From a virus: a DNA stretch of 41,294 nucleotides. Where the stretch lies: UHGV virus genome UHGV-0110231; one strand, given 5' to 3'. A program made the position numbers and the translations under genes. Below are positions 189 to 36,816 of this stretch, piece after piece. A model generated the notes under the pieces. That model searched no databases. It was not told the DNA's origin and saw only the letters and a program-made list of their open reading frames with translations. The stretch's first letter is position 1. The number at the start of each line of letters is the position of its first letter.

Positions 189-203
189 TTACCTTAAAGG
201 TAT
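189..203. promoter_or_regulatory. Operator-like palindrome TTACC-N5-GGTAt upstream of int
   Basis: TTACCTTAAAGGTAT; member of the recurrent TTACC-N5-GGTAA family. Confidence 0.4.
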
Positions 204-245
204 ACTCTCATACCGTCATGAAAATGGTTTCTATATGGGTGAATT

Positions 246-1496
246 GTGCTTACCGATACAAAATTAAAAAACCTCAAGCCGCAGGACAAACTGTACAAGG
301 TCTCCGATCGTGACGGGCTGTATGTAGCTGTGCTTACGTCAGGCACGGTCTCGTTTCGCTATGACTACCGTATCAACGGTCGCCGCGAAACACTGGTAAT
401 CGGGCAGTATGGGCGTGACGGTATCAGCCTGGCAGAAGCGCGAGAAGAACTGATTGCTGCAAAGAAGCTGCTTAAAGCAGGCCAGTCACCGGCTGCGGCT
501 AAACGTGACGGTATCAAAAAGATTCGTGGTGCCGAGACGTTTGCGGTACATACCGACAGTTATATGAAACACGTCATCCTGGCTGACAGTACCCGCGCAA
601 TGAAGCAGGCGGTGATCGACCGTGACATACTTCCGGTTCTTGGCAACAAAATGATGGCTGAAATTACCACATCGATGGTTCGTGATTTGTGTGACCGGAT
701 TGTCGAACGCGGTGGTCGGGCAACAGCAGTACAGGCCAGGGAGATCATCAGCAGCGTATACCGTCACGCCAATGACCGTGGTCATGGTTTGTTTAATCCT
801 GCCGCTGACATTAAACCTTCGTCTATCGCCATATTTAAACCACGAGAGCGAACACTGACACCAGAAGAAATTGGCCTGTTCTTCCGCACGCTGGATGCCA
901 TTGGTGCTATGGGCACTATGAAAATGGCTTTAAAGCTGGTGCTTATCACTATGGTTCGTAAAGGCGAATTCACCAATGCAACGTGGGATGAAATAGATTT
1001 TAAAAAATGGACATGGACAATTCCTTCAGACCGCATGAAGGGAAGCCGGGCGCACGTTATTTACCTGCCTAAACAGGCACAGGATATATTGGTTGGGTTG
1101 CAGATGTGCGCTGGTGGAAGTGAATATCTGGTTCCTGGTCGTTACAATTTCCGGAAGCCATTATCTAATGCCGCGCTGAACTCTCTGATCGACAGAACGG
1201 TGAAAATAATAAATGAAGATGGTGAGCGTATTCAGGACTTCACCGTACACGATATGCGCCGTACAGCAAGTACGTTGTTGCATGAGGCTGGTTATCCTTC
1301 AGACTGGATTGAAAAGGCTCTGGCACATGAGCAGAAAGGTGTGCGCGCCGTATATAACAAAGCGGAATACGCCAGACAGCGCGCCTACATGTTGCAGCAG
1401 TGGGCCGATATGATTGATTCCTGGATTGACGGGGAGCATACGGATCTGATTCCGTTCTCCCCGTCTAAGTTTGAGAAGTTGATGGCGGGGGAATAA
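246..1496 (+). CDS. int: Tyrosine integrase, P4/CP4-57 type
   Basis: 416 aa; N-terminus LTDTKLKNLKP...GLYVAV...FRYDYRINGRRETLVIGQY matches the P4-type arm-binding domain; GTG start; sits next to attL. Confidence 0.85.
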   Translation: MLTDTKLKNLKPQDKLYKVSDRDGLYVAVLTSGTVSFRYDYRINGRRETLVIGQYGRDGISLAEAREELIAAKKLLKAGQSPAAAKRDGIKKIRGAETFAVHTDSYMKHVILADSTRAMKQAVIDRDILPVLGNKMMAEITTSMVRDLCDRIVERGGRATAVQAREIISSVYRHANDRGHGLFNPAADIKPSSIAIFKPRERTLTPEEIGLFFRTLDAIGAMGTMKMALKLVLITMVRKGEFTNATWDEIDFKKWTWTIPSDRMKGSRAHVIYLPKQAQDILVGLQMCAGGSEYLVPGRYNFRKPLSNAALNSLIDRTVKIINEDGERIQDFTVHDMRRTASTLLHEAGYPSDWIEKALAHEQKGVRAVYNKAEYARQRAYMLQQWADMIDSWIDGEHTDLIPFSPSKFEKLMAGE

Positions 1497-1499
1497 CGT

Positions 1500-1694
1500 T
1501 TAATAGTTCTGCTGATTTTCTTCCATCTCTGCTTCTGCTGCCAGTGATTCAATTTTATCTGCGAATATTGCTGACAGTGTTGCAAATTCAGCATCAGTGA
1601 CAGCGGGAACTGGAACAAACCTGATCCCGCTGTGTGCAAGCATGTTTGCAGTTTCAAGACATTTCCTTAAATCTGCTGGTGATGCCCTGTTCAT
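1500..1694 (-). CDS. Hypothetical small protein (64 aa; the longer ORF to 1814 overlaps the methyltransferase)
   Basis: Internal ATG gives a 4-nt ATGA overlap with the upstream methyltransferase stop, suggesting translational coupling. Confidence 0.4.
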   Translation of the reverse strand: MNRASPADLRKCLETANMLAHSGIRFVPVPAVTDAEFATLSAIFADKIESLAAEAEMEENQQNY

Positions 1695-2341
1695 GCTGCA
1701 CGCTCCCGCCCCTGGTTGTCTGTTGGTGACAGCAGAGCATTGCTGAATGCATTTGTTAATCCGCCAATATCCAACGCGTATCCTGGGTGTAGTTGCACTG
1801 CCGGGTCTTCGCACTGATTACCCCAAACATCGAAACCATGAGACGACTGGCGGGCGAACAGTTCAATGCGAGAAACATCGCCTAACAATTGCACAAGTTT
1901 TTCACGAACGACATCTGGTTTTCTTGAATGCTCAAGCCGCGGTGCGGTAAATGACTGAACGATCCCTGCATTAATGCGCGGAGGTAGTTTTCCCTTTACT
2001 GCAAACAGGCAATCTTCACTATTGGCGCGAGTCATGTGTCCCATACCCATAACCAGTTTATCTGGTTGTCGACTACCACATTTTATCCATGTGAAGCCCT
2101 TCATGGTCATCAGACGGAATCCCCAGGCTTCAACAACTTTTAGAGCTTCGAGTGGTTGTGTTGGCACCCACCACATGGCCAACAGACAGTTTTCATCGGC
2201 CAAATCCCACACAGGAAGGCGGCAGATATCCATCACACTCATAACCGGATATTTAAAACCGGCACCGCGATTACCATCTGCGGCTTTGTCCCGGTATACC
2301 CAGGGTGGATCTGCATAGATTAGTGTGTATTTCTTAGTCAT
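1691..2341 (-). CDS. MT-A70-family N6-adenine DNA methyltransferase (orphan)
   Basis: 216 aa; catalytic DPPW motif within TLIYADPPWVY; no adjacent restriction endonuclease. Confidence 0.75.
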   Translation of the reverse strand: MTKKYTLIYADPPWVYRDKAADGNRGAGFKYPVMSVMDICRLPVWDLADENCLLAMWWVPTQPLEALKVVEAWGFRLMTMKGFTWIKCGSRQPDKLVMGMGHMTRANSEDCLFAVKGKLPPRINAGIVQSFTAPRLEHSRKPDVVREKLVQLLGDVSRIELFARQSSHGFDVWGNQCEDPAVQLHPGYALDIGGLTNAFSNALLSPTDNQGRERAA

Positions 2342-5210: not shown

Positions 5211-5225
5211 TTACCGTTGAGGTAA
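5211..5225. promoter_or_regulatory. Operator-like palindrome (putative PL region)
   Basis: TTACCGTTGAGGTAA; nested in a larger inverted repeat TTACCTC...GAGGTAA. Confidence 0.5.
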
Positions 5226-5272: not shown

Positions 5273-5287
5273 TTACCTATTAGGTAA
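5273..5287. promoter_or_regulatory. Operator-like palindrome (putative PL region)
   Basis: TTACCTATTAGGTAA, a perfect TTACC-N5-GGTAA. Confidence 0.5.
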
Positions 5288-5344: not shown

Positions 5345-5929
5345 TTATTGTTTGTTTTTTTCGTTCTGGTTGATGACAAATTCAATGTAACTTTCGATCT
5401 TTGCTTTCTCGGTTTCGGGTAACAATGCGTAGCGCGAGCGGTCATAGTTGATGGTCGCAGGGTCGTGCGGGTGAATCAGTAATTCATAGCCGTGACGCCC
5501 GAATGCGGATGCAACATTCTCCAGGGTGGAAATGGAAACGCTGACCTCATTGTTTAACAGGCGGCTGATTGTCACCTGGGCGACGCCGGATGCGCGGTGA
5601 AGTTTTCCCTGTGTTGAAAGGTCGCGGCTTTCGCTCATCCAGCGTTCCAGGTTGTGAGCCGCCAGCTGACCAATGTCGCTTGGGCCGACAGGCTGAAAAC
5701 CTTCCTGAGAAAGCGAGCGATCGATATCAAGCCAGTTACGGGGTTTATTGGCGGCAGCTTCAATTTTTCGCGCAACCTGGTCGCCGATAACCTTCTTGCC
5801 AAGAGCCCAGCGGTTTACCAGATTTGCCTGAGTTCCAAGTTTTTCTGCCATCCGCGTCTGAACACCATTGAATTCACGGTCGATCAAGTCGTTGAGATTT
5901 TGCCTGCGGACGTCCTGGATACTTTTCAT
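5345..5929 (-). CDS. Prophage repressor with two HTH (XRE-type) domains and no recognisable S24 peptidase domain
   Basis: 194 aa; N-terminal HTH (MAEKLGTQANLVNRWALGKK) and a second HTH (ASGVAQVTISRLLNNEVSVSISTLENVASAFG); divergent from the cro-like gene across an operator cluster. Confidence 0.7.
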   Translation of the reverse strand: MKSIQDVRRQNLNDLIDREFNGVQTRMAEKLGTQANLVNRWALGKKVIGDQVARKIEAAANKPRNWLDIDRSLSQEGFQPVGPSDIGQLAAHNLERWMSESRDLSTQGKLHRASGVAQVTISRLLNNEVSVSISTLENVASAFGRHGYELLIHPHDPATINYDRSRYALLPETEKAKIESYIEFVINQNEKNKQ

Positions 5930-5984: not shown

Positions 5985-5999
5985 TTACCCAACAGGTAA
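5985..5999. promoter_or_regulatory. Operator site 1 in the repressor/cro intergenic region
   Basis: TTACCCAACAGGTAA. Confidence 0.55.
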
Positions 6000-6001
6000 A
6001 T

Positions 6002-6016
6002 GCACCTCATAGGTAA
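6002..6016. promoter_or_regulatory. Operator site 2 (degenerate)
   Basis: GCACCTCATAGGTAA. Confidence 0.4.
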
Positions 6017-6032
6017 CTATCCTTGATTTTTG

Positions 6033-6047
6033 TTACCTTATGGGTGA
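6033..6047. promoter_or_regulatory. Operator site 3, between the putative -35 (TTGATT) and -10 (GAATAT) of a rightward promoter
   Basis: TTACCTTATGGGTGA. Confidence 0.5.
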
Positions 6048-6083: not shown

Positions 6084-6314
6084 ATGAGCGATAACGGACA
6101 TTTCGATTTCAAAAAGCACTGGCTTGCACTTACTCCGGATGAGCGTGAAGCCTTCGCACAGGAAGCCGGAACGACGAGTCACTATATCCAGACTCACTTA
6201 ACAGGTAAGCGCAAAATGCCAGGTAAAGTATTGATGAATGGGCTTTTTAAAGCCTGTAAAACAAGACAATGGCTGCGCTCAAAAGCAGAACTGGCATACT
6301 TCTTCTACTCATGA
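6084..6314 (+). CDS. Cro-like HTH regulator
   Basis: 76 aa; first rightward gene after the operators; HTH-like segment EAGTTSHYIQTHLTGKRKMP. Confidence 0.55.
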   Translation: MSDNGHFDFKKHWLALTPDEREAFAQEAGTTSHYIQTHLTGKRKMPGKVLMNGLFKACKTRQWLRSKAELAYFFYS

Positions 6315-6336
6315 TATCCAGCCACAACCCTCTGTA

Positions 6337-6359
6337 GACCGCCATCCGGCGGTCTTTTC
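6337..6359 (+). terminator. Rho-independent terminator after the cro-like gene (tR1-like)
   Basis: Hairpin GACCGCC-atcc-GGCGGTC followed by TTTTC. Confidence 0.6.
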
Positions 6360-6369: not shown

Positions 6370-6384
6370 TTACCTCAAAGGTAA
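6370..6384. promoter_or_regulatory. Operator-like palindrome downstream of the terminator
   Basis: TTACCTCAAAGGTAA. Confidence 0.5.
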
Positions 6385-6464
6385 TAAAAAACCAAATCTG
6401 GTTGATCTTTTTTTTGTGTCAGCACAAAATAACCGTAATCCCAATACTAATAACAGGGCTTACC

Positions 6465-6665
6465 ATGGAAATCATTACACGTATTGATGCCGCAAAGCGC
6501 GGACTTAAACGCTACTACACCGGAAAACCATGTAAGCACGGACATGACAGTGAACGCTGGGTTTACAACGGACACTGTGTTGAGTGCACCATGGAATCAA
6601 ACCGTCGCATCAGGGCAGAGATTAAGCAGATCATGATTAATTCCTCCCCACAACACTCAAGCTGA
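6465..6665 (+). CDS. Small Cys/His-rich (zinc-binding?) protein in the cII position
   Basis: 66 aa; motif KPCKHGH...NGHCVEC. Confidence 0.45.
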   Translation: MEIITRIDAAKRGLKRYYTGKPCKHGHDSERWVYNGHCVECTMESNRRIRAEIKQIMINSSPQHSS

Positions 6666-6680
6666 TAGCGGAGATTAATC

Positions 6681-7496
6681 ATGAGCAGACATGCAACAGA
6701 TTGGGCCTGGGAGACAGATCCAGGTAGCTCATCATTAAAGCTCATACTGCTCTCGATGGCTGACAGAGCCGATGAATATAACCTCTGCTACCCCAGCATA
6801 GAACGCCTCGTTAAAGACACTTGCCTGAATAAAAAAACCGTGCAGGCCGGGCTTATATCGCTCATGAAAATGGGGCTTATTTCAGATACCGGAGAGAGAA
6901 AGGGAGCGACAAAAAGAGTGCGGGTTTTCTCTCTTAATATAACCAAAAACGGGAACATTAAAGGCAACCGGGAGGGTGGCAATGAACCCGAAAACGGTAA
7001 TGTTACCGAAAACGGGAATATACCCAAAAACGGGATGTTGAATGATCCCAAAAACGGGATGTTGAATGATCCCAAAAACGGGATCCAGAACCAGTCATAT
7101 AACCAGTCATTTAACCAAGAGAGGGAGAGCAGGACAAAAAACGGGGATTCTGTGCATCATGACCCCGGCGCAAACAACGCCGTGATGAATAACTTTGTTC
7201 CTCCTGGTGGGCCAGGGCAATTAGGCAAATTTGTCATGCATGAACAATGGCAGCCATCAGATGACTTTCTTCGGAAAAGCTCATTGCAGGGGATCTACCT
7301 GGACAGTCTGCCAACGGCACAGGAACTTGCAGAGTTCAGAATTTACTGGATGGCTGAGGGTAAGGCATACCATCAGGCACAGTGGGAGCAGAAGCTGGCA
7401 AGGCGGCTGCAGATTAGCAGACAGAAGCAATCAACATTACCTGATAACAACGTTCCGCACTGGAACAGCCCTGAAGCATGGGAGGATTTCTTGTGA
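6681..7496 (+). CDS. Replication initiator (lambda O-like replisome organiser) with N-terminal winged-helix domain
   Basis: 271 aa; N-terminal HTH; iterons embedded in the coding sequence, as in lambda O. Confidence 0.65.
   Translation: MSRHATDWAWETDPGSSSLKLILLSMADRADEYNLCYPSIERLVKDTCLNKKTVQAGLISLMKMGLISDTGERKGATKRVRVFSLNITKNGNIKGNREGGNEPENGNVTENGNIPKNGMLNDPKNGMLNDPKNGIQNQSYNQSFNQERESRTKNGDSVHHDPGANNAVMNNFVPPGGPGQLGKFVMHEQWQPSDDFLRKSSLQGIYLDSLPTAQELAEFRIYWMAEGKAYHQAQWEQKLARRLQISRQKQSTLPDNNVPHWNSPEAWEDFL
6943..7083. repeat. Putative replication origin iterons (CCAAAAACGGGA, at least 5 copies including two exact 24-bp tandem units)
   Basis: Copies at 6943, 7006, 7024, 7048 and 7072, plus variants at 6988 and 7134; they encode the PKNGMLND peptide repeats. 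Confidence 0.6.
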
Positions 7497-8278
7497 ACAA
7501 CGTTTTTACCGCGATACAAAACCGTGACGGAGAAGCCCTTTCTCGCATGTCAGGTTATGAGCATCAGTACACCAACAATGACAACGTGGTGAACATGTCA
7601 GCAGAGAGGCTTGTTGATGCCCTTTTCAAACAGCTGAAACAACTGTTTCCGGCGGCAGTGGTAACCAACCTGAAGACGCCAGAGCAGGAAGTTGCTGCAA
7701 AACAGCAGTGGATTGCTGCGTTTGCCGAAGGGGGGATCCGAACCCGTGAACAGGTTTCTGCTGGTATGCGCCACGCCCGCGCCAGTGAGTCTCCGTTCTG
7801 GCCGTCGCCAGGGCAATTCATCAAGTGGTGTAAAGACAGCAAGATGGTTCTTGGCGTCACCATTGACGATGTGATGGCGGAGTTTCACCGGTACAGCAAG
7901 GAAAAAAGTTTATATCCTGGTGGTCCCGAAAGATTCCCGTGGCGACATCCGGTTATGTACTGGGTCGTATGTGATACCCGCCGTGCAATGTATCAGCGCC
8001 AGCTTAGCGAGATTGAGGTTGAGAAACACGCGCGCAGGCTGCTCGATGATTGGGCGAAAAAGGTGGCTTCCGGACAGCAGATACCCGATCCGGTGATCAG
8101 CATACAGGCAAAGCCAGAACCCATGAGTACGCCTCCGGACACAGGGAGAGACGTTTACCATCCACCAGGGCGAAGTTTCGGGTGCATGCCTAACGCCGCC
8201 ACCCTTGGGGGAATAACACCGGCGCAGTGGCTGATGGAGGAATACAGGCGGGGAAAGGCGTCAGGATTTATCAAGTAA
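7493..8278 (+). CDS. Replication protein (lambda P-like helicase-loader position)
   Basis: GTG start with GGGAGGA Shine-Dalgarno (alternative ATG at 7478); immediately follows and overlaps the O-like gene. Confidence 0.5.
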   Translation: MNNVFTAIQNRDGEALSRMSGYEHQYTNNDNVVNMSAERLVDALFKQLKQLFPAAVVTNLKTPEQEVAAKQQWIAAFAEGGIRTREQVSAGMRHARASESPFWPSPGQFIKWCKDSKMVLGVTIDDVMAEFHRYSKEKSLYPGGPERFPWRHPVMYWVVCDTRRAMYQRQLSEIEVEKHARRLLDDWAKKVASGQQIPDPVISIQAKPEPMSTPPDTGRDVYHPPGRSFGCMPNAATLGGITPAQWLMEEYRRGKASGFIK

Positions 8279-8315
8279 TACCAGCGCGATAGCGCATTTT
8301 TTTACGTCTCGATAA

Positions 8316-8330
8316 TTACCTTAGAGGTAA
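8316..8330. promoter_or_regulatory. Operator-like palindrome
   Basis: TTACCTTAGAGGTAA. Confidence 0.5.
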
Positions 8331-8377: not shown

Positions 8378-8392
8378 TTACCTAAGGGGTAA
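8378..8392. promoter_or_regulatory. Operator-like palindrome, 4 nt before the ATG at 8396
   Basis: TTACCTAAGGGGTAA. Confidence 0.5.
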
Positions 8393-8395
8393 ATC

Positions 8396-8743
8396 ATGAG
8401 AAAACAGATGCAGGCTCTTGGTCGACTCAAAACAGGCCAGATGAACAAAACAGAATCTGCGTATTGCCAGCACCTTGAGCTGCGTAAACGTGCAGGAGAA
8501 ATCGTCTGGTATCGATTTGAGGGTATCAAGCTGCGGTTAGCTGACAACACGTTCTATACGCCAGATTTTGCTGTGATGCTCGCCACCGGCGAGATGGAAC
8601 TGCACGAAGTGAAAGGGGGATTCTGGACCGATGACGCCAGAGTGAAAACCAAAGTCGCCGCAGATCAGTATCCGTTCCGAATCATCGGGGTAACGGTTAA
8701 GCCAAAGAAAGCAGGTGGTGGCTGGAACATCGAAGAGTTCTGA
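8396..8743 (+). CDS. Small PD-(D/E)XK-type nuclease (DUF1064-like; possible Holliday-junction resolvase)
   Basis: 115 aa; YTPDF ... ELHEVKG matches a D...E.K nuclease signature. Confidence 0.45.
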   Translation: MRKQMQALGRLKTGQMNKTESAYCQHLELRKRAGEIVWYRFEGIKLRLADNTFYTPDFAVMLATGEMELHEVKGGFWTDDARVKTKVAADQYPFRIIGVTVKPKKAGGGWNIEEF

Positions 8744-11387: not shown

Positions 11388-11509
11388 TGAACAAGTGCAA
11401 CGCTCTGCTTTATGCCATGGTGATTGGTTTCGGCCTGGCTGCTGGTATCCGGGTTTATATTGCCTGGGAGTCATTAATCAATCTGGCGTGGAGTGCGATT
11501 CGTGGCTAA
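11387..11509 (+). CDS. Small hydrophobic membrane peptide (40 aa)
   Basis: Not in the ORF track; GGAGGTG Shine-Dalgarno, TAATG overlap with the upstream stop; MNKCNALLYAMVIGFGLAAGIRVYIAW... Confidence 0.35.
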   Translation: MNKCNALLYAMVIGFGLAAGIRVYIAWESLINLAWSAIRG

Positions 11510-11840
11510 ATCCCCCGCAGAACGCAAAGCCGCGCAGCGCGCTCGGCAGTCAGCCGCCGGTGAGCGCAAAATTGAACTGGTGCTGGATAAGCAGGAGCAG
11601 GAAATGCTGGAGCGTAACTGTGCCGCCCGTCGCCCTGGTCGTGCGCCGTATGAAATGAGCGAATACATCGCGTTACTGATCCGCCAGGATGATGCACGCG
11701 TGCGCGGGCGTATAAAATCGATCAGCAGAAAACGTTGCGGTAAGTGCGGCGAGAGAGTTCCAGTTAATTCATGCCCGTGTAATGGTGACTCGCAATGCTG
11801 GGTGACTAAAGGCTGGCATGAAACGAAATTAATAGTGTGA
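11493..11840 (+). CDS. Basic protein with C-terminal Cys cluster (zinc ribbon); candidate late-gene regulator
   Basis: 115 aa; CGKCGERVPVNSCPCNGDSQC; last gene before a terminator and the terminase genes. Confidence 0.45.
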   Translation: MRFVAKSPAERKAAQRARQSAAGERKIELVLDKQEQEMLERNCAARRPGRAPYEMSEYIALLIRQDDARVRGRIKSISRKRCGKCGERVPVNSCPCNGDSQCWVTKGWHETKLIV

Positions 11841-11848
11841 CATGTCAC
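11837..11848. repeat. Perfect 12-bp palindrome GTGACATGTCAC (copy 1)
   Basis: Overlaps the stop codon of the 11493..11840 gene. Confidence 0.7.
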
Positions 11849-11889: not shown

Positions 11890-11915
11890 GCCGCCAACTA
11901 TGGCGGCTTTATTTT
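11890..11915 (+). terminator. Rho-independent terminator upstream of terminase (tR'-like)
   Basis: Hairpin GCCGCCA-acta-TGGCGGC followed by TTTATTTT. Confidence 0.55.
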
Positions 11916-11958
11916 GCATGGTACTATTACCACAACGGTAACTATTACCACGGTGGTT

Positions 11959-12555
11959 ATGATGCCTGCTGAACCTAAAACCTATAAACGCAAATCAACG
12001 CAATTTAAGCCGCTCACAGCAATGCAGGAGGCTTATTGCCAGTCATACATCAAAACGCCTGAAAACCAGACTCAGGCAGCGATTAACGCAGGATTCTCCC
12101 CAAACACAGCGGCAGTTAAAGCCAGTGTCATGATGCGCGATGAACGCATTCAAAAACGGATTGCCGAGTTGATGGAGGAGCGCAACAAACGAATGCGCGT
12201 CAGTGCCGATTACGTTCTCATGCGCCTGGTGGAGATCGACCAGATGGACGTGATTGATATCCTCAACGACGATGGGAGCCTTAAGCCAATCCGCGAGTGG
12301 CCGAAAATCTGGCGCACTACGCTTAGTGGCTTTGATCTGTCATCGACCATCATGAACATGAACGAGGATTCGATAGAGACAATCCTCAAAAAAATTAAAT
12401 GGCCTGACAAGGTGAAGAACCTCGAACTGATTGGTAAGCACGTCGACGTCAACGCATTCAAAGAACGCCTGGATGTTAATGTGAATGTGACAATTGCTGA
12501 TCGCATAGCGGCAGCCAGGAAGCGACTCAAAGAACGTCAGGATGGTAATCAGTGA
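11959..12555 (+). CDS. Terminase small subunit
   Basis: 198 aa; HTH-like N-terminal part (AINAGFSPNTAAVKASVMMRDERIQKRIAEL); immediately precedes and overlaps the large subunit gene. Confidence 0.7.
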   Translation: MMPAEPKTYKRKSTQFKPLTAMQEAYCQSYIKTPENQTQAAINAGFSPNTAAVKASVMMRDERIQKRIAELMEERNKRMRVSADYVLMRLVEIDQMDVIDILNDDGSLKPIREWPKIWRTTLSGFDLSSTIMNMNEDSIETILKKIKWPDKVKNLELIGKHVDVNAFKERLDVNVNVTIADRIAAARKRLKERQDGNQ

Positions 12556-14101: not shown

Positions 14102-14113
14102 GTGACATGTCAC
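14102..14113. repeat. Perfect 12-bp palindrome GTGACATGTCAC (copy 2)
   Basis: Between the convergent terminase and gp49-like genes. Confidence 0.7.
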
Positions 14114-15071: not shown

Positions 15072-15086
15072 TTACCTGAAAGGTAA
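15072..15086. promoter_or_regulatory. Operator-like palindrome upstream of the structural operon
   Basis: TTACCTGAAAGGTAA. Confidence 0.5.
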
Positions 15087-31350: not shown

Positions 31351-31647
31351 ATGCAAGCTATAGGATTCATTGTTTATATCGTCGTTGGTCTTTTTCAGTT
31401 GGCAGTAATTATGGCTGGGCTTGAATCATGGTTTGGATTGCACTGGATAATTGCAGCCCCCATTGCTTTCATCGTTAGCTATATTCCATTTGTTGGAGCG
31501 ATTGTTGGTATGGTTGGCGCTGTGGATGTATGGCGGTGGGAGTGGTGGCAGGCTGGCCTTCTCTTCTTTGGTGGGATCATCTTTGCTATTGTCTGCGGTG
31601 GAATGTCATCATTTTTCGAATGGCTATCATTCAGAAAAAGAACGTGA
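31351..31647 (+). CDS. Polytopic inner-membrane protein; candidate superinfection-exclusion factor
   Basis: 98 aa, roughly three hydrophobic helices; sits where P22 carries sieA. Confidence 0.5.
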   Translation: MQAIGFIVYIVVGLFQLAVIMAGLESWFGLHWIIAAPIAFIVSYIPFVGAIVGMVGAVDVWRWEWWQAGLLFFGGIIFAIVCGGMSSFFEWLSFRKRT

Positions 31648-31655
31648 CATGTCAC
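31644..31655. repeat. Perfect 12-bp palindrome GTGACATGTCAC (copy 3)
   Basis: Overlaps the stop codon of the 31351..31647 gene, in the same register as copy 1. Confidence 0.7.
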
Positions 31656-31679
31656 AGGCCGCTTTCGCGGCCTTTAAAT

Positions 31680-31937
31680 TTACCGGGTTTGTTTTCGTAA
31701 TTGTTCGGCACAATAGTCGAGATGTGTTTGCAGATCCCGCATAGACATCTGTGAGCTGGTGACGTAGTTAATCAGTGCAGTCAGTTCGGCAAGTGGGCCA
31801 TCGACATTAAATCCATCCTTATCGAGATCCCGGAGTAATTTCATCAAGTGCGATCCTTCCACCAGTGACCTGACGCCTCCCGGCGTGTGAATCTTTTCGG
31901 TAAATCCGTCTTCCAGTGGATAGTGATACTGCTGCAT
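31680..31937 (-). CDS. Small protein (85 aa) under a LexA-box promoter; candidate SOS-inducible antirepressor or effector
   Basis: ATG at 31937 with GGAG Shine-Dalgarno; LexA box 20 nt upstream; the longer ORF to 32003 would place the box inside the coding sequence. Confidence 0.5.
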   Translation of the reverse strand: MQQYHYPLEDGFTEKIHTPGGVRSLVEGSHLMKLLRDLDKDGFNVDGPLAELTALINYVTSSQMSMRDLQTHLDYCAEQLRKQTR

Positions 31938-31956
31938 CTTATCTTCTCCATGCAAT

Positions 31957-31976
31957 AACTGTATAAATGTACAGTA
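31957..31976. promoter_or_regulatory. LexA (SOS) box
   Basis: AACTGTATAAATGTACAGTA against consensus TACTGTATATATATACAGTA; CTGT-N8-ACAG intact. Confidence 0.7.
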
Positions 31977-32023
31977 GCAAATAATTTGTTTGCTATCCAG
32001 CACGTTTTGCTAATCACCTGAAA

Positions 32024-32038
32024 GGTAATATCTGTTCG
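32024..32038. promoter_or_regulatory. Operator-like palindrome in the divergent region before the tailspike
   Basis: TCACCTGAAAGGTAA. Confidence 0.45.
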
Positions 32039-32132
32039 TATTCATGAGCTATATATCCATATATGGTTTTTCAGGTAATAGAATAACCAGATATGCGGCG
32101 CAACGGGTGCTGCGACTATCTGGAGATTTAAC

Positions 32133-34922
32133 ATGACGGTCTCAACCGTAGTTGACCATAACGATTACACCGGGAACGGCGTTACGACATCCTTCCCGTA
32201 TACCTTCCGCATTTTCAACAAATCTGACCTGGTTGTTCAGGTGGTTGACCTTGATGAAAATATCGCTGTGCTAGCTCTTGATACTGATTACACAGTTACC
32301 GGGGCTGGAGGGTATAACGGTGGTAATGTAATTCTGTCGAAGGCGTTGGCTAACGGTTATCAGATTTCTATATCACGAGAACTCCCGGTTACGCAGGAAA
32401 CTGATTTGCGTAATCAGGGTAAGTTCTTTGCTGAGGTGCATGAAGACGCGTTCGATAAACTGACGATGCTGATACAGCAGGCGTACAGTGTGTTCCGCCT
32501 GGCGCTTCGCAAGCCGTCCAGCATCGCGAATTGGTACGATGCATTGGGAAACTACATCCGTAATGTGCGTGACCCTCGAGATCCTCAGGATGCGGCCACA
32601 AAGCATTACGTCGACTCATTAAGTGCAGGAAATACATCACATACTGATTTGTTATTTAGTAGAACATTGCGTACCGCAGAGAGCATCCCGCAACTTCCAT
32701 CTGTGGAGTCGCGAAAAAATAAAATTGTTGGCATGGATAACAACGGTAATCCCATAATGTTATTGCCTGAATCAGGAAGCGCGGCTGATGTCATGATTGA
32801 ACTGGCAAAAAATAGCGGAGCTGGGCTGATAGGATACAATGATACAGAGGAATACCCAGATGGAACGGTTGGCGATATTCTCAATAGACGACCTTTCGTT
32901 CAACTTTCTGATTTCGGCGTTACTGGATCTGGCGATGAAACAGAGAAGGTTAGATCGGCACATGCCAAAGCCAATGCTCGAGGCGTTCCCGTTATCTATG
33001 ATGTCTCTGAAGTTACTCTTGATGCAAAAGCAAACATAGAAGTCAGAACATCAGTAGACTTTAATGGTTGCATTATCCATCCTGTATTTTATGGAACGCC
33101 ATCTTACGACACAACGCCGACTTATTCGTTGCTAGGTAAAGCGTCTGAAAACGTGACATCAAAACTGTCACAGTCTGGTATGCGTAAGGGTGAAATGGCC
33201 CTTTACGGCGGTATGGCATCTTATAGTCGTGGAACATTCTGGATGGATACACGAGACCCTTTATGTAAACGTAGTCTCTCCGATGTGACCCCAAACCACT
33301 ATAAGACAACGATAAACCGCATCACGAAGTATGGTGGTTTACAGTATCCACTTGAGCATGATTTTACTGCATCACCTTCTCCAGAGGCCTACTTCAGACC
33401 TGATGAAGACTTCTGGTTGAAAGTTGAAGGCGCTCACATTGATACGTCTGGTATGACGTCAGGTGTTGTTTTTAAAGCATTAAGGTCCCAAGTTAAGTTT
33501 TCAGACATAACTGTACGGCAAGACGACAATGTTAAGATGACAAACATCCGGCAAATATTTTATCTCGGTGATGGTGTTAGCCAGATAAGATTTAATGACG
33601 TATCAGCAGAGGCTATGTCGAGCTATAACGCGAACAATGGCACATATCTGTTAAGCAGCAATTATGCGGCAGAGATTATTCTAGATAATGTTAATGCTGT
33701 GCAAGGTTGGGGTGCTCTCGGTCTTCATAAAGTGAGAGATTTGACAGTTACTAATTCAACTTTAAATCGGGTAGATGGACATTATCATATTTTCGACATA
33801 GACGTTAATCACACTAAGTTACACGAGTTCGGTGTACTCATTGGTGCTGGTGGAGGATACCTTCGTGTAACAAATTGCACTAAGTACCTCGGCACTCAAA
33901 CAGACCTAACTGGGACGAGCGGGACTGCTATAGATAAGACACGCCGAAGTGTCATCTATATGCGAGACGATTACGGTAGCTATTTTGACGGGGATATCAC
34001 CGTCGACAACGTAGTGTATAAAATGTCCAGAGAATTATCATTTGCTTCTGCATCCGAGGAGTGGCCAGGTATTCTGTCCTGTGTGTCGTTCAATGCCGGG
34101 GTTAGTACAACAAGTTCAACAACTCCTGATTATGGCTATACAGCACCAGTTCCGTGGGGGACAACTGTCACTGTTAAAAACATTACGGTAGAAGTGTTTA
34201 GGGATTCAATACTGGATTCATGGCTCACTTTTGTAGCTGTTAACTACAACGGGAATTACATACTTCCCAGCGTGTTAATGCCAGCAAGTATCACTGTGAA
34301 AGATATTAAATATAGCAAACCTCCGAGGACTGCGAAAATAGCACCCGTCATTCTCCCGGATTTACGTGGAACAACTGCGGCAGTTGCCTCTGCTAATAAT
34401 CGGGCTTTCTTTAACTCAATAATTAATATTGAGAATATTCAAAGTGGTTTTGCAAAAGACCGTCAAATCGGAGCTCTGAATACTGGGGTCCAGACACTTA
34501 TGTGCATGTATACTCAGACAGAGATATCTAACTTCCCTACTCCGTCTGTTGTTCCAGAAATAAATGTGCGTAACTTTTATGGCTTTTCTGGTAAGTTTGA
34601 CATTCCAGGAAGACTAAGCCTAACGGACTGCTTCGTCATTTCTCTGACCGACTCATCTGGTGGCAGAAATGCAGATTCTTTTATAAAAGTATCCGGAGGG
34701 TTTGTCTACGCGTTGCCTAGTTCTTCTGGTGGTTCTTCATCACAGCTACCAAGAGCCGAGTGGAATTCTGTTAGGTTTATTAAAAGCCCTGTCTCTCCAG
34801 ACCTAACTGATTACGACTCAATACAGGGTTGCACATTCGAAAATGGCAATCCACCGATAGGGATAACAGTGGCACTTGCGTTTTCAGGAAGTGTTGGTGA
34901 CGCTGCTAATAGATTGCAATAA
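32133..34922 (+). CDS. Tailspike / receptor-binding protein
   Basis: 929 aa; N-terminal particle-binding domain (MTVSTVVDHNDYTGNGVTTSFPYTFRIF...) followed by a long Ser/Thr/Asn/Gly-rich beta-helix-like region. Confidence 0.75.
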   Translation: MTVSTVVDHNDYTGNGVTTSFPYTFRIFNKSDLVVQVVDLDENIAVLALDTDYTVTGAGGYNGGNVILSKALANGYQISISRELPVTQETDLRNQGKFFAEVHEDAFDKLTMLIQQAYSVFRLALRKPSSIANWYDALGNYIRNVRDPRDPQDAATKHYVDSLSAGNTSHTDLLFSRTLRTAESIPQLPSVESRKNKIVGMDNNGNPIMLLPESGSAADVMIELAKNSGAGLIGYNDTEEYPDGTVGDILNRRPFVQLSDFGVTGSGDETEKVRSAHAKANARGVPVIYDVSEVTLDAKANIEVRTSVDFNGCIIHPVFYGTPSYDTTPTYSLLGKASENVTSKLSQSGMRKGEMALYGGMASYSRGTFWMDTRDPLCKRSLSDVTPNHYKTTINRITKYGGLQYPLEHDFTASPSPEAYFRPDEDFWLKVEGAHIDTSGMTSGVVFKALRSQVKFSDITVRQDDNVKMTNIRQIFYLGDGVSQIRFNDVSAEAMSSYNANNGTYLLSSNYAAEIILDNVNAVQGWGALGLHKVRDLTVTNSTLNRVDGHYHIFDIDVNHTKLHEFGVLIGAGGGYLRVTNCTKYLGTQTDLTGTSGTAIDKTRRSVIYMRDDYGSYFDGDITVDNVVYKMSRELSFASASEEWPGILSCVSFNAGVSTTSSTTPDYGYTAPVPWGTTVTVKNITVEVFRDSILDSWLTFVAVNYNGNYILPSVLMPASITVKDIKYSKPPRTAKIAPVILPDLRGTTAAVASANNRAFFNSIINIENIQSGFAKDRQIGALNTGVQTLMCMYTQTEISNFPTPSVVPEINVRNFYGFSGKFDIPGRLSLTDCFVISLTDSSGGRNADSFIKVSGGFVYALPSSSGGSSSQLPRAEWNSVRFIKSPVSPDLTDYDSIQGCTFENGNPPIGITVALAFSGSVGDAANRLQ

Positions 34923-34927
34923 AAAAT

Positions 34928-34953
34928 TGGCTGGGAATTTTAATCCCCAGCCA
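34928..34953. terminator. Bidirectional terminator between the convergent tailspike and acyltransferase genes
   Basis: TGGCTGGG-aattttaat-CCCAGCCA hairpin with an A-run on one side and T-rich sequence on the other. Confidence 0.55.
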
Positions 34954-34958
34954 GCATA

Positions 34959-36761
34959 TTAATTTATTTTTGATAAAAGATACTTACCTACTATTTTAGA
35001 ACCATCACTAGAAAGATGCCCACCATCAAAATAAACCGGTTTATCATTATGAATAACCATGCACTTCCCATTCTTGCACAGCTCGTCTTTAGGATTTATT
35101 ATCTTATAAGAGGCAAGCCCATCCCCTGAGTTCTCTATAAATAAATCATCAAGTTTTGTGCTCTTTATATCTACTAAATTTTTGCAGCCATCAAGTATGT
35201 GTCTAACTGGAAGTCTATTTCCATTCATGCAAGAAACAACGTCATAGTTTGGATGTTGGTAATTTCCTATTACATACATTCTTTTATCTTTATTAATAAG
35301 TTGTCGCCACTTGTTTATTTGTGAGAGTATAACATTATTATATGATGACTTACTTACATAATCTCCATGACGACTTATTAATTTATCATTATATCTCTCC
35401 CAGTTATGAGCAAGTATTATAGTGTTTGATTTCGATTTATTTATCTCATTGATTGCTTTTTCATACATCGAATAGCATCCTGATTCTTCTTTAGCATAAT
35501 AATCAGGAAGAATTGGGCATGACACTAACGAAATAAATGTTGCATTTATACCTTCACTGTCAATAAAGTCAATGAATTGCTGTGAGTAGCTATCACCAAC
35601 AAAAATAATGCCATCCTGTTTGCTTGATTCATTCAAATGCAAAATCTTTCCATTTGCCTTACCAAATAGTCTGTGTCCTCCATATGACGTATCCACCTTG
35701 CTACTTATCCTTGATGGAGCACCGGCGTAAAATATTGATGATGATATTAACATCATAAATATATATGAAAACAAAATAATATTTATATTTTTAACTTTAG
35801 ATTCAACTAAATGATGAAGTATTAATGATAAAGTGAAAACAATAAACAAATAAAAAAATAACCCAACCTCAATATTTAACTTTCTGAAAAACACTATGAC
35901 AGGCCAATGCACAAGATAAATCGAATAAGAAATTATTCCTATGTACTGTATTACTCTGTTTCTAAAGAATGAATTTTCGTTCATTCCTGAATGTATTACA
36001 AGCATAGCTCCGACAACAGGCACTATTGCATTTACGCCAGGCCACGCCATCGTGTCATTATAAATAATGAATGATAACAGTATCAATACAACACCAAATA
36101 TCTCTCCAATCCTATTTAATTTTAATTTTTTATTAATCACATAAACTATTGCCCCGCCCATCATTTGCCAGGATCTTCCGGGGAGAGAATAGTATGCAAA
36201 TTTACTATGATTGAATGCTTGATATATAGAAAGCGCAAGCGATAAAACGAATATTGAGTAAATAAGAACAACTCTATTGCTTCTATTTTTTACGAGATAT
36301 AAAAAAATTGGGAATAGTATATAGAATTGCCATTCAACAGAAAGTGACCACGTATGAAGTAGTATTTTGCTTTTTGAGTCCGAATCAAAATACCCACTCT
36401 CAAATGCATACACATAATTTGATATGAATGACATGCTTGATAGCATATGCTTTCCAAGCATTTTGTATGATGTTACATCAAGTGATACAAAACCTATTAT
36501 TGAAGTAAACAAAACAACTGCAATAAGTGCTGGTATAATTCTTTTTACTCTTGATGTGTAAAATTTTTTAAATGAAAAGTTACCATTATCCATCCCATTC
36601 ATTATGATGGAGGTCATAAGATAACCTGATATCACGAAGAAAATATCTACGCCAGCAAATCCACCCGGTAACCACTGCGGATTAAAATGAAAAATCACAA
36701 CAGACATGACTGCTATAGCTCTCAGTCCGTCAATATCCTTTCTGCGTTGAATGGAAGGCAT
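34959..36761 (-). CDS. Membrane acyltransferase-3 (OafA-like) with C-terminal SGNH domain; putative O-antigen acetyltransferase
   Basis: 600 aa; N-terminal acyltransferase-3 motifs (DGLRAIAVMSVVIFHF), multiple TM helices, soluble C-terminal domain; strongly AT-rich compared with the rest of the prophage. Confidence 0.75.
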   Translation of the reverse strand: MPSIQRRKDIDGLRAIAVMSVVIFHFNPQWLPGGFAGVDIFFVISGYLMTSIIMNGMDNGNFSFKKFYTSRVKRIIPALIAVVLFTSIIGFVSLDVTSYKMLGKHMLSSMSFISNYVYAFESGYFDSDSKSKILLHTWSLSVEWQFYILFPIFLYLVKNRSNRVVLIYSIFVLSLALSIYQAFNHSKFAYYSLPGRSWQMMGGAIVYVINKKLKLNRIGEIFGVVLILLSFIIYNDTMAWPGVNAIVPVVGAMLVIHSGMNENSFFRNRVIQYIGIISYSIYLVHWPVIVFFRKLNIEVGLFFYLFIVFTLSLILHHLVESKVKNINIILFSYIFMMLISSSIFYAGAPSRISSKVDTSYGGHRLFGKANGKILHLNESSKQDGIIFVGDSYSQQFIDFIDSEGINATFISLVSCPILPDYYAKEESGCYSMYEKAINEINKSKSNTIILAHNWERYNDKLISRHGDYVSKSSYNNVILSQINKWRQLINKDKRMYVIGNYQHPNYDVVSCMNGNRLPVRHILDGCKNLVDIKSTKLDDLFIENSGDGLASYKIINPKDELCKNGKCMVIHNDKPVYFDGGHLSSDGSKIVGKYLLSKIN

Positions 36762-36801
36762 TCTTACCTCTAAACATTGATTATTATTTTATAAGATAAT
36801 A

Positions 36802-36816
36802 TCACCCAGAAGGTAA
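36802..36816. promoter_or_regulatory. Operator-like palindrome between the acyltransferase and the lysis cassette
   Basis: TCACCCAGAAGGTAA. Confidence 0.45.

What the first reader, a model, noticed from the sequence alone, without database searches (positions are those of the whole stretch)
189..36816. The same palindrome recurs at about 12 intergenic sites across the whole prophage
Outside the immunity region, TTACC-N5-GGTAA copies with zero to two mismatches occur upstream of int (189), before the small nuclease gene (8316, 8378), before the structural operon (15072), before the tailspike and LexA-controlled gene (32024), and before the lysis cassette (36802). All are intergenic and most are followed by an AT-rich -10-like GGTAATAAT. 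A single regulator appears to touch every transcription unit, which is more like a P1 C1-type dispersed operator network than a lambda-type two-operator switch.
Basis: seen in the sequence. Interest (0 to 1): 0.75.

Follow-up and report, generated by a model that had tools for sequence, protein, structure and literature searches.

The report
Dispersed repressor operators in phiV10-like prophage
The repeated palindrome is real and is almost certainly the binding site of the prophage's own repressor, placed at the start of nearly every transcription unit, but the same sites are already annotated in the related phage epsilon15, so this is a confirmed but ordinary feature.

Summary
Observation confirmed. 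TTACC-N5-GGTAA occurs 8 times exactly (0.03 expected) and 13 times with at most one mismatch (0.8 expected). All sites, plus a weak 14th at 6002, lie in the 6.3% of the prophage that is non-coding.

The window is a phiV10/epsilon15-type (Uetakevirus) prophage at guaA, with att cores at 39 and 38830. Its 194-aa repressor (5345-5929, minus strand) is a full-length homologue of the SPC32H Rep (PDB 5D50). The LexA-boxed gene at 31680-31940 is the SPC32H antirepressor Ant.

Three sites lie between rep and the cro-like gene, and two lie at PL. The others sit at the 5' ends of the int, replication, DUF1064, terS, structural, ant/tailspike and oac/lysis units, mostly just after terminators.

The sites are syntenic in six other Uetakevirus genomes. 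Half-sites are 95% identical across genomes, spacers 60%. The palindrome is the top one in every genome.

The epsilon15 RefSeq record already labels seven of them as "repressor" binding sites. A matrix built from those seven alone recovers twelve of the window's sites as its twelve best hits.

The dispersed-operator reading is therefore supported, but it is already known. The P1 comparison is analogy only.

By-products: pair spacings of 62 and 17-18 bp conserved across the genus, and two further unannotated conserved palindromes.

The parts
39..55 (+). attL core ATTGAGTGGGAATGATT (3' end of guaA). The attR copy is at 38830-38846, so the prophage spans 39-38846.
   Evidence: The ZX5 paper PMC9782041 gives this att core.
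189..203 (.). Operator-like site TTACCTTAAAGGTAT (one mismatch), about 45 bp upstream of int (246-1496). The GGTAT mismatch is conserved in all relatives. The site is enclosed by an 8-bp inverted repeat. It is the least certain member.
   Evidence: The epsilon15 record calls this spot an integrase/RNase III site. PWM score 14.0 bits.
5211..5225 (.). PL main operator. It abuts the -10 of the leftward promoter TTGACA(5253-5248)-17-AATTAT(5230-5225) and covers the expected start site.
5273..5287 (.). PL auxiliary operator, 62 bp centre-to-centre from 5211. The spacing is 62 bp in five of the relatives and 63 bp in BUCT711.
5345..5929 (-). rep: a 194-aa repressor, full-length homologue of SPC32H Rep. 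The N-terminal domain (residues 1-68) is the conserved DNA-binding module. There is no S24 peptidase domain.
5985..6047 (.). Three-site operator cluster between rep and the cro-like gene: 5985-5999 (exact), 6002-6016 (two mismatches) and 6033-6047 (one mismatch). Spacings are 17 and 31 bp. The third site overlaps the core of the rightward promoter candidates (TTGATT at 6023, or TTGTTA 6030-17-TATTAT 6058).
6084..6314 (+). cro-like gene (76 aa, PHROG 35 'transcriptional repressor'), followed by a terminator at 6336-6355.
6370..6384 (.). Operator after the cro terminator. It lies about 60 bp upstream of the start predicted for the conserved promoter TTGATC(6402)-17-CAAAAT(6425), which heads the replication unit (6465-8278). 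A half-operator follows the -10: CAAAAT|AACC here, CAAAAT|TACC in epsilon15.
8316..8330 (.). Auxiliary operator after the replication-unit terminator (GCGC-GATA-GCGC-T7), 62 bp from 8378 in all seven genomes.
   Evidence: The phiV10 record annotates the terminator.
8378..8392 (.). Main operator abutting the -10 of the conserved promoter TTGATT(8350)-17-TTTAAT(8373). It also overlaps the ribosome-binding site of the DUF1064 gene (8396-8743).
11927..11959 (.). Adjacent operator pair (11927-11941 exact; 11945-11959 with one mismatch), 18 bp apart. It lies between terminator 11890-11907 and the terS start at ATG 11962. The junction AACTAT|TACC (AATTAT|TACC in epsilon15 and Tyrion) repeats the PL geometry.
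   Evidence: The epsilon15 record labels the first site 'repressor'.
15072..15086 (.). Operator between the leftward tRNA-Arg/gp49-66 unit and the rightward structural operon (15177 onward). An invariant leftward TTGACA (15108-15103) lies 17 bp from TACCTT inside the site. A right half-site GGTAA (15144-15148) sits where the right half of a second operator 62 bp downstream (core 15134-15148) would lie.
   Evidence: The epsilon15 orthologue is annotated 'repressor'.
31680..31940 (-). ant: antirepressor, SPC32H Ant homologue. The open frame runs to 32003, but the homology begins at residue 24 of the ORF product, so the start is probably the internal Met at about 31940.
31959..31974 (.). LexA box CTGTATAAATGTACAG upstream of ant, conserved in relatives.
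32014..32028 (.). Operator (TCACC...GGTAA, one mismatch; exact in PAS61, Tyrion, epsilon15 and PAT1) in the divergent ant / tailspike (32133-34922) region.
   Evidence: The epsilon15 orthologue is annotated 'repressor'.
36802..36816 (.). Operator (one mismatch) in the divergent region between the acyltransferase gene (34959-36761, minus strand) and the lysis cassette (36922 onward). It is absent in PAS61, where the upstream module is replaced.
6390..6403 (.). Second palindrome AWCCA-N4-TGGTT. The other copies are at 15125-15138, 32055-32068 and 36846-36859. Each lies 19.5-52.5 bp downstream of a Rep operator, inside a near-invariant block. Its binder is unknown.

Best explanation
The 15-17-bp dyads (consensus W-A-TTACC-NNWNN-GGTAA-T-W) are operators for the prophage's own immunity repressor Rep (5345-5929). 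Rep is an SPC32H-type repressor that does not cleave itself.

**Layout.** The genome is cut into about ten short transcription units by rho-independent terminators. Each unit restarts at its own promoter, and each of those regions carries one to three Rep operators.

**Proposed mechanism (inferred).** In the lysogen, Rep binds all of these regions and directly silences:
- PL and PR;
- the replication unit and the DUF1064-to-regulator unit;
- terS/terL, the structural operon, tailspike and lysis;
- probably int and ant as well.

At PL, the 8350 promoter, terS and (as a half-site) the 6400 promoter, the main operator abuts the -10 hexamer and covers the start site. That geometry implies occlusion of RNA polymerase. 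At the rightward immunity promoter the operator lies in the -35/-10 spacer.

Rep is reported to bind DNA as a tetramer with two pairs of DNA-binding domains. That fits the conserved operator pairs: 17-18 bp apart (side by side) or 62 bp apart (about six helical turns, a small loop). One tetramer would clamp a main and an auxiliary site.

Induction would run through the SOS response. LexA cleavage de-represses ant, and Ant then strips Rep from all operators at once.

**Shown here.** Motif enrichment, exclusively intergenic and promoter-proximal placement, genus-wide synteny with selective half-site conservation, homology of Rep and Ant to the solved SPC32H pair, and the LexA box.

**Not shown here.** Actual binding, which promoter each late-region site controls, and looping.
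For: - **Enrichment.** 8 exact sites against 0.03 expected, and 13 against 0.8 at one mismatch.
- **Placement.** All 14 sites are non-coding, in a prophage that is 6.3% non-coding.
- **Classical operator position.** Three sites lie between rep and the cro-like gene and two lie at PL. They overlap predicted -35/-10 elements.
- **De novo scan.** TTACC-N5-GGTAA is the top 5-N-5 palindrome in all seven Uetakevirus genomes, with 8-11 exact copies each.
- **Selective conservation.** Sites are syntenic. Half-sites are 0.95 identical across genomes, against 0.60 for spacers and 0.70 for flanks.
- **Prior annotation.** The epsilon15 RefSeq record labels seven orthologous sites 'protein_bind: repressor'. 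A matrix built only from those seven ranks 12 of the window's sites as its top 12 hits. Eleven of these score at least 12 bits, against 0.44 such hits per shuffle.
- **Protein homology.** Rep matches SPC32H Rep 5D50_A over its full length (E = 4e-42). Ant matches 5D50_E (E = 1e-45).
- **No self-cleavage domain.** Pfam finds no Peptidase_S24 in Rep. The LexA box is at 31959-31974.
- **Domain-to-motif link.** Pseudomonas phage PseuP_224 cI shares only the Rep N-terminal domain (39% identity; 23 of 30 invariant alignment columns fall in residues 1-68). Its TTACC-N4-GGTAA sites lie only in two clusters flanking its cI gene.
- **Published function.** A Rep identical in sequence (ZX5 ORF21), when overexpressed, abolishes free phage and cuts holin and endolysin mRNA by 99.97-99.99% (PMC9782041).
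- **Tetramer.** SPC32H Rep is described as binding palindromic DNA as a tetramer (PMC9638917).
- **Pair spacing.** The PL pair is 62 bp apart in six genomes and 63 bp in BUCT711. The DUF1064-gene (RuvC gene in epsilon15) pair is 62 bp apart in all seven. The other pairs are 17-18 bp apart throughout.
Against: - No binding or expression experiment exists for the dispersed sites, either here or in any paper I could read. The primary epsilon15 and SPC32H papers are not held.
- All Rep variants (42-100% identical) use the same half-site. The decisive test, operator and repressor changing together, therefore cannot be run within the genus.
- For the structural, tailspike and lysis units I could not place a convincing sigma-70 promoter on the operator. 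The best -10-like elements lie 50-62 bp downstream, in separate conserved blocks.
- The operator-to-block distances (62, 50 and 54 bp) are not all in helical phase.
- PAS61 lacks the lysis-region site, so that site is dispensable.
- The 36802 site also overlaps a candidate promoter for the lysogenic-conversion acyltransferase, which would be expected to stay on in a lysogen.
- Site 189 carries a genus-wide conserved mismatch and lies in the attP arm region, where other constraints apply.
Confidence: 0.85

Rival explanations
1. The same dyads are also, or at the dispersed sites mainly, bound by the 76-aa cro-like protein (6084-6314). As in lambda, where Cro and CI share operators, the network would then serve early-to-late timing in lytic growth as much as lysogenic silencing.
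For: The cro-like gene sits in the canonical position across the three-site cluster and matches PHROG 35 'transcriptional repressor'. Shared operators are the rule in lambdoid switches (established knowledge).
Against: The cro-like protein has no Pfam or PDB match, so its specificity cannot be inferred. It shows no detectable relation to the Rep N-terminal domain, which is the part that travels with TTACC half-sites in PseuP_224. This reading is not exclusive of the main explanation.
Confidence: 0.35
2. The dispersed copies are targets of a different conserved factor that happens to share the half-site, for example a late activator such as the PHROG 536 regulator (11502-11840) or the PerC-like protein (2334-2633). 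They would switch the late units on rather than off.
For: In the structural, tailspike and lysis regions the dyad lies about 67-80 bp upstream of the best -10-like elements. Those elements have poor -35 hexamers, which suggests activator dependence. Candidate regulators exist.
Against: The dispersed and immunity-region sites are indistinguishable. A matrix from the epsilon15 'repressor' sites scores both classes alike. The terS, 8378 and 5211 sites cover -10/+1 positions, which are typical of repression. Overexpressing Rep shuts lysis-gene transcription (PMC9782041). A separate conserved palindrome, AWCCA-N4-TGGTT, is a better candidate for a late-factor site.
Confidence: 0.07
3. The dyads act at the RNA or DNA-structure level as small hairpins, terminators, RNase III sites or recombination sites, rather than as protein operators.
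For: They are inverted repeats. The epsilon15 annotators placed RNase III and integrase sites near some of them. The extended repeat around 189 folds at -9.5 kcal/mol.
Against: The hairpins have 4-7 bp stems and fold at only -2 to -5.5 kcal/mol. Three of the five dyads tested are no better than shuffles, and none is followed by a T-run. The loop sequence varies while both arms stay fixed as sequence rather than by compensatory change. The sites lie upstream of genes and after the real terminators.
Confidence: 0.03

Closest known systems
Salmonella phage epsilon15 repressor (gp38) operators, as annotated in NC_004775.2/AY150271 (Kropinski et al. 2007, Virology 369:234; paper not readable here)
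   Same: The same 17-bp dyad, ATTACC-N5-GGTAAT, sits at the same syntenic positions: before terS, before the structural operon, between ant and the tail fibre gene, at PL, and before the first gene after the replication unit. Seven sites are labelled 'repressor / lysogeny'. Genome architecture and attachment site are the same.
   Different: The window's Rep is only 42% identical to the epsilon15 Rep. The epsilon15 record does not label the rep/cro cluster, the lysis, int or post-cro sites, or the second member of the terS and RuvC-gene pairs, although all are present in its sequence. The phiV10-lineage records annotate no operators at all.
Salmonella phage SPC32H Rep/Ant switch (PDB 5D50, 5D4Z; Kim & Ryu 2013 J Virol; Kim et al. 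2016 PNAS)
   Same: There is a full-length Rep homologue (E = 4e-42), an Ant homologue (E = 1e-45), a LexA box upstream of ant, and no S24 self-cleavage domain. SPC32H carries the same dyads at the same places.
   Different: Rep is 42% identical. Tetramer formation and disassembly by Ant are taken from the literature (PMC9638917, and my memory of the abstracts). They were not tested here.
Phage P1 C1 repressor network (many dispersed operators plus antirepressors)
   Same: One immunity repressor has more than ten operators scattered over the genome, controlling many separate units. Antirepressor control is also shared (established knowledge).
   Different: From memory, P1 operators are asymmetric 17-mers (ATTGCTCTAATAAATTT-type). 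The sites here are symmetric dyads. Rep has Cro/CI-type HTH hits only and is in an unrelated protein family. The window also keeps a lambda-like three-site cluster between rep and cro.
Lambda-type CI/Cro switch (represented here by Pseudomonas phage PseuP_224 cI)
   Same: Three operators lie between divergent repressor and cro-like genes, and there is a second cluster at PL. The PseuP_224 cI N-terminal domain is homologous to the Rep N-terminal domain and uses the same TTACC/GGTAA half-sites.
   Different: PseuP_224 has an S24 self-cleavage domain, a Q antiterminator gene, an N4 spacer, and operators only in the two clusters flanking cI. The window has no S24 domain, uses Ant-mediated induction, and has nine further sites outside the immunity region.
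Mycobacteriophage L5 gp71 / Bxb1 gp69 'stoperators'
   Same: Dozens of repressor sites are dispersed through the genome in short intergenic gaps, extending repression beyond the immunity promoter (established knowledge; PMC1934351 abstract).
   Different: Stoperators are asymmetric 13-mers. They are oriented with transcription and act as elongation blocks. The sites here are symmetric and mostly overlap or precede promoters just after terminators.

Membership tests
Uetakevirus (epsilon15/SPC32H-type) Rep operator network | 17-bp dyad with consensus ATTACC-N5-GGTAAT | tested here: met
   (logo W-A-TTACC-NNWNN-GGTAA-T-W). A matrix from the epsilon15-annotated sites recovers the window's sites.
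Uetakevirus (epsilon15/SPC32H-type) Rep operator network | Sites at positions syntenic with the annotated epsilon15 repressor sites | tested here: met
Uetakevirus (epsilon15/SPC32H-type) Rep operator network | Repressor homologous to epsilon15 gp38 / SPC32H Rep | tested here: met
   (5D50_A, E = 4e-42, residues 1-190). (42% identity to epsilon15 and SPC32H, 100% to phiV10 and ZX5).
Uetakevirus (epsilon15/SPC32H-type) Rep operator network | Physical binding of Rep to the dispersed sites | not testable with these tools
   This needs EMSA, footprinting or ChIP. The primary papers are not held.
SPC32H-type Rep/Ant antirepression switch | Small Ant protein homologous to SPC32H Ant | tested here: met
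   (5D50_E, E = 1e-45, 83 aligned residues).
SPC32H-type Rep/Ant antirepression switch | LexA box at the ant promoter | tested here: met
   CTGTATAAATGTACAG at 31959-31974, conserved in relatives.
SPC32H-type Rep/Ant antirepression switch | Repressor lacks a RecA-dependent self-cleavage (S24) domain | tested here: met
   Pfam finds HTH_3, HTH_26 and YdaS-like hits only.
SPC32H-type Rep/Ant antirepression switch | Rep tetramer that binds DNA through N-terminal domains from different dimers | not tested
   Known from the literature only (PMC9638917). The conserved 62-bp and 17-18-bp site pairs are compatible with it.
Phage P1 C1 operator network | C1-family repressor protein | tested here: not met
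   Rep matches Cro/CI-type HTH families and SPC32H Rep only.
Phage P1 C1 operator network | Asymmetric 17-bp operator | tested here: not met
   The sites are symmetric dyads. The P1 consensus is recalled from memory.
Phage P1 C1 operator network | More than ten operators dispersed over many transcription units | tested here: met
   13-14 sites at about ten units.
Lambda CI-type switch | Operator clusters restricted to the two flanks of the repressor gene | tested here: not met
   Nine sites lie outside the immunity region. Contrast PseuP_224, where all sites flank cI.
Lambda CI-type switch | S24 peptidase C-terminal domain | tested here: not met
   against for the PseuP_224 cI.
Mycobacteriophage stoperators | Asymmetric sites in one orientation relative to transcription | tested here: not met
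   The sites are palindromic.

The most novel reading that the evidence does not exclude
The Rep dyads may be one layer of a three-motif regulatory code that nobody has described for this genus.

- **Paired operators.** Rep operators are arranged in fixed pairs, 62 bp or 17-18 bp apart. A tetramer would clamp a promoter between an auxiliary site at about -60 and a main site at about +1.
- **Second palindrome.** AWCCA-N4-TGGTT sits in near-invariant blocks at the replication, structural, tailspike and lysis units. It would be the target of an unidentified timing factor.
- **Third palindrome.** GTGACATGTCAC sits beside the terminators that close three operons.

Together these would let a terminator-partitioned podovirus genome run its programme without a lambda-style N/Q antitermination cascade.
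Probability: 0.3. Interest if true: 0.5.

Novelty: already known. Interest (0 to 1): 0.25.

Why it matters
It matters modestly. The finding confirms that Uetakevirus prophages are silenced by direct, distributed repression of every unit rather than by blocking two early promoters. These prophages include phiV10-like phages of E. coli O157 and epsilon15/SPC32H-like phages of Salmonella.

This has three consequences.
- It explains why one small antirepressor under LexA control can fire the whole genome at once.
- It predicts cross-immunity among genus members that share the invariant half-site.
- It gives exact coordinates for engineering phiV10-based reporter phages or for curing prophages.

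The concept and the orthologous sites are already in the epsilon15 record. The value added here is the complete site list for the phiV10 lineage, the conserved pair geometry, the link between the Rep N-terminal domain and the TTACC half-site, and two extra conserved motifs worth testing.

Tried and rejected
- **Primary papers not available.** I tried the epsilon15 genome paper (PMC2698709 and its DOI) and the SPC32H papers (PMC3807360, PMC4983836). None is held. The 'already known' verdict therefore rests on the epsilon15 GenBank features and on my memory that the paper reports the consensus ATTACCWDWWNGGTAAT.
- **Literature searches.** Searches for the motif or for operator studies in this genus found only the ZX5 paper, which maps no operators.
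- **Co-variation test.** I looked for a relative whose repressor and operators had changed together. All 36 Uetakevirus Rep homologues (42-100% identical) keep TTACC/GGTAA, so the test is uninformative within the genus. The one outside relative (PseuP_224) keeps the half-site but changes the spacer to N4.
- **Late-unit promoters.** I tried to fix sigma-70 promoters for the structural, tailspike, lysis and ant units by consensus scan and alignment. No consistent -35/-10 placement relative to the dyad emerged. I leave these promoters undetermined rather than force a model.
- **RNA hairpin or terminator reading.** Rejected.
- **Rfam.** Only the tRNA was found.
- **PDB searches.** The cro-like protein and the PHROG 536 regulator gave no useful match.
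- **Two-mismatch hits inside genes.** Dismissed as noise: 33 observed against 12 expected, and there is a clear score gap after the 12th matrix hit.

Full report
**1. Identity of the window**

Megablast shows the window is 97-98% identical to phiV10, PAS61, phiv142-3, ZX5 and TL-2011b. These are temperate podoviruses of the genus Uetakevirus, the epsilon15 group. The att core ATTGAGTGGGAATGATT, published for phiV10, epsilon15 and ZX5 at the 3' end of guaA (PMC9782041), occurs at 39 and 38830. The prophage therefore spans 39-38846.

**2. Checking the observation**

- Exact TTACC-N5-GGTAA occurs 8 times against 0.03 expected.
- With at most one mismatch there are 13 sites against 0.80 expected, and no shuffle reaches 13.
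- With at most two mismatches there are 33 against 12 expected, so most of those are noise.
- The credible set is 189, 5211, 5273, 5985, 6033, 6370, 8316, 8378, 11927, 11945, 15072, 32014 and 36802, plus the two-mismatch 6002 inside the rep/cro cluster.
- I built a CDS map from the ORF list and the annotations of relatives. On it, none of the 14 sites touches a CDS.
- Only 6.3% of the prophage is non-coding, so 13 of 13 outside genes has P of about 2e-16.
- The terS pair is intergenic if terS starts at ATG 11962, as annotated in epsilon15, Tyrion and SPC32H. The upstream TTG start used in PAS61 and phiV10 would put the rho-independent terminator at 11890-11907 inside the gene.

**3. The proteins of the switch**

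- The gene at 5345-5929 (minus strand) encodes a 194-aa protein with Cro/CI-type HTH hits and no S24 peptidase domain.
- It aligns over its full length with the SPC32H repressor, PDB 5D50_A, at E = 4e-42.
- It is 100% identical to the repressors of phiV10 and ZX5, and 42% identical to those of epsilon15 and SPC32H.
- The minus-strand gene at 31680-31940 matches the SPC32H antirepressor Ant, 5D50_E, at E = 1e-45.
- A perfect LexA box lies upstream of ant at 31959-31974.
- The window therefore carries the SPC32H-type switch. As I recall the Kim & Ryu 2013 and Kim et al. 2016 abstracts, Rep does not cleave itself and is removed by a LexA-controlled Ant. A paper I could read states that Rep binds palindromic DNA as a tetramer (PMC9638917).

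**4. Why the dyads are Rep operators**

(a) *Position.* Three dyads (5985, 6002, 6033) lie between rep and the divergent cro-like gene. Two (5211, 5273) lie at the leftward early promoter.

(b) *De novo scan.* An unbiased scan for 5-N-5 palindromes ranks TTACC-N5-GGTAA first in all seven Uetakevirus genomes examined. These are the window, PAS61, Tyrion, epsilon15, PAT1, SPC32H and Klebsiella phage BUCT711, with 8-11 exact copies each.

(c) *Selective conservation.* The sites are syntenic. In alignments of orthologous intergenic regions, half-site columns are 0.95 identical. The five spacer columns are 0.60 identical and the flanks 0.70 (alignments). This is the signature of a dimeric HTH site.

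(d) *Prior annotation.* The epsilon15 RefSeq record already carries seven 'protein_bind, repressor, lysogeny' features. They lie before terS, before the structural operon, between gp19 (ant) and the tail fibre gene, three on the PL side, and one before the RuvC-like gene. All are this dyad. A weight matrix built only from those seven ranks 12 of the window's sites as its top 12 hits, all non-coding. There is a gap from 11.4 to 8.5 bits before the first coding hit. Eleven hits reach 12 bits, against 0.44 per shuffle.

(e) *Domain-to-motif link.* The only Rep relative outside the genus in the phage collection is the cI of Pseudomonas phage PseuP_224.
- It shares just the N-terminal 68 residues (39% identity). 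In the alignment, 23 of the 30 invariant columns fall in those residues.
- It has a classical S24 C-terminal domain.
- That phage has TTACC-N4-GGTAA dyads only in two clusters flanking its cI gene and nowhere else in 43 kb.
- This ties the TTACC half-site to the Rep N-terminal domain. It also shows that the dispersal belongs to the Uetakevirus genome, not to the repressor family.

(f) *Published function.* Overexpressing the identical ZX5 repressor abolished free phage and cut holin and endolysin transcripts by 99.97-99.99% (PMC9782041). This fits direct repression of the lysis unit, although it could be indirect.

**5. Architecture**

The genome is divided by terminators at these points (phiV10 record):
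- after the cro-like gene (6336-6355);
- after the replication genes (about 8284-8300);
- before terS (11890-11907);
- after terL (14078-14097);
- after the structural operon (31656-31673);
- after the tailspike gene (34928-34953).

Every restart region carries a dyad.

A recurrent geometry is a -10 hexamer whose last T is the first T of TTACC:

| Promoter | Elements | Junction |
|---|---|---|
| PL | TTGACA-17-AATTAT | AATTAT\|TACC (operator 5211) |
| 8350 promoter | TTGATT-17-TTTAAT | TTTAAT\|TACC (operator 8378) |
| terS | not resolved | AACTAT\|TACC here; AATTAT\|TACC in epsilon15 and Tyrion |
| 6400 promoter | TTGATC-17-CAAAAT | CAAAAT\|TACC in epsilon15; CAAAAT\|AACC here |

In this geometry the operator covers about -7 to +8.

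An auxiliary operator lies 62 bp upstream of the main one at PL and at the 8350 promoter. The PL spacing is 62 bp in six genomes and 63 bp in BUCT711. The other pair is 62 bp in all seven. Operator 6370 lies about 60 bp upstream of the 6400 promoter's predicted start. Other pairs are 17-18 bp apart (5985/6002 and the terS pair).

These fixed pairs fit a tetramer with two DNA-binding surfaces. That is inference, not a result.

For the structural, tailspike and lysis units I could not place a promoter on the dyad. The dyads lie 50-62 bp upstream of near-invariant blocks that contain the best -10-like elements. At 15072, an invariant leftward TTGACA lies 17 bp from TACCTT inside the operator. That site may therefore also, or instead, control the leftward tRNA-Arg/gp49-66 unit. 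Site 36802 is missing in PAS61, where the upstream module is replaced.

**6. Rival explanations**

- RNA hairpins or terminators are excluded. The folds are only -2 to -5.5 kcal/mol, there are no T-runs, and the arms are fixed as sequence rather than by compensation.
- A different factor at the dispersed copies is unlikely, because the dispersed and immunity-region sites score alike.
- Shared use by the cro-like protein is plausible and is not exclusive of Rep binding.

**7. Comparison with known systems**

This is the epsilon15/SPC32H system itself. It resembles the P1 C1 network, and the mycobacteriophage stoperators, only in having many dispersed sites. The protein family, site symmetry and site sequence all differ. 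It also keeps a lambda-like three-site cluster between rep and cro. The phiV10-lineage records annotate terminators but no operators, so the full site list for this lineage is new detail, not a new concept.

**8. Verdict**

- Novelty: already known.
- Interest is about 0.25.
- Residual novelty lies in three places: the conserved pair geometry, the palindrome AWCCA-N4-TGGTT, and the palindrome GTGACATGTCAC.
- AWCCA-N4-TGGTT has four intergenic copies among six hits at one mismatch or fewer, against 1.5 expected.
- GTGACATGTCAC occurs three times against 0.04 expected, each beside an operon-end terminator.

Noticed in passing
window 11837-11848, 14102-14113, 31644-31655: A perfect 12-bp palindrome, GTGACATGTCAC, occurs three times (0.04 expected). 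Each copy lies beside a rho-independent terminator at the end of an operon: after the PHROG 536 regulator gene, after terL, and after the last structural gene. Two or three exact copies occur in each of the other six Uetakevirus genomes (BUCT711 has a fourth GTGAC-N2-GTCAC palindrome), and the copy before terS is aligned across genomes. The Tyrion and phiV10 records start inside the copy near terS. Function unknown.
   Followed up: partly
window 6390-6403, 15125-15138, 32055-32068, 36846-36859: A second palindrome, AWCCA-N4-TGGTT, gives six hits at one mismatch or fewer (1.5 expected), four of them intergenic. Each lies 19.5-52.5 bp downstream of a Rep operator. They sit inside near-invariant blocks ahead of the replication, structural, tailspike and lysis units, and Tyrion also has one at PL. 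This is a likely site for an unidentified second regulator. Its position relative to candidate -10 elements is not uniform.
   Followed up: partly
window 6935-7087: Six roughly 24-nt iterons (core CCCAAAAACGGGA, itself a dyad with an N6 spacer) lie inside the DnaT-like replication gene (6681-7496). This is probably the replication origin. Two copies loosely resemble Rep half-sites (TTACC-GAAAAC-GGGAA).
   Followed up: partly
window 183-217: An 8-bp inverted repeat, GACGGTAT/ATACCGTC, encloses the operator-like site at 189 (RNA fold -9.5 kcal/mol). The epsilon15 record marks this spot as an integrase-binding and RNase III site. The GGTAT mismatch is conserved in all relatives, so the site may serve more than one function.
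   Followed up: partly
window 14542-14557: A second CTGT-N8-ACAG match (CTGTACGGGTTTACAG) lies between the gp49/66-like gene and the phage tRNA-Arg(UCU) at 14673-14749. Its centre is GC-rich, so it may be a chance match (11 of 100 shuffles give two or more hits).
   Followed up: no
window 36899-36937: A conserved 12-codon mini-ORF with a strong Shine-Dalgarno sequence (AAGGGGG) overlaps the start (36922) of the first lysis-cassette gene in another frame. It could be a leader peptide or a translational-coupling element.
   Followed up: no
L007 (Pseudomonas phage PseuP_224) 19922-19974 and 20797-20836: A lambdoid Pseudomonas siphovirus has a cI that shares only the Rep N-terminal domain. It uses the same half-sites with a 4-bp spacer, in two clusters flanking cI and nowhere else in 43 kb.
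   Followed up: yes
window 14750-15070: About 320 bp of non-coding DNA lies between the tRNA gene and the structural-operon operator. phiV10p04 is annotated on the opposite strand across the tRNA and looks spurious. The epsilon15 record places an RNase III site in its equivalent tRNA-side spacer upstream of the structural operon.
   Followed up: no
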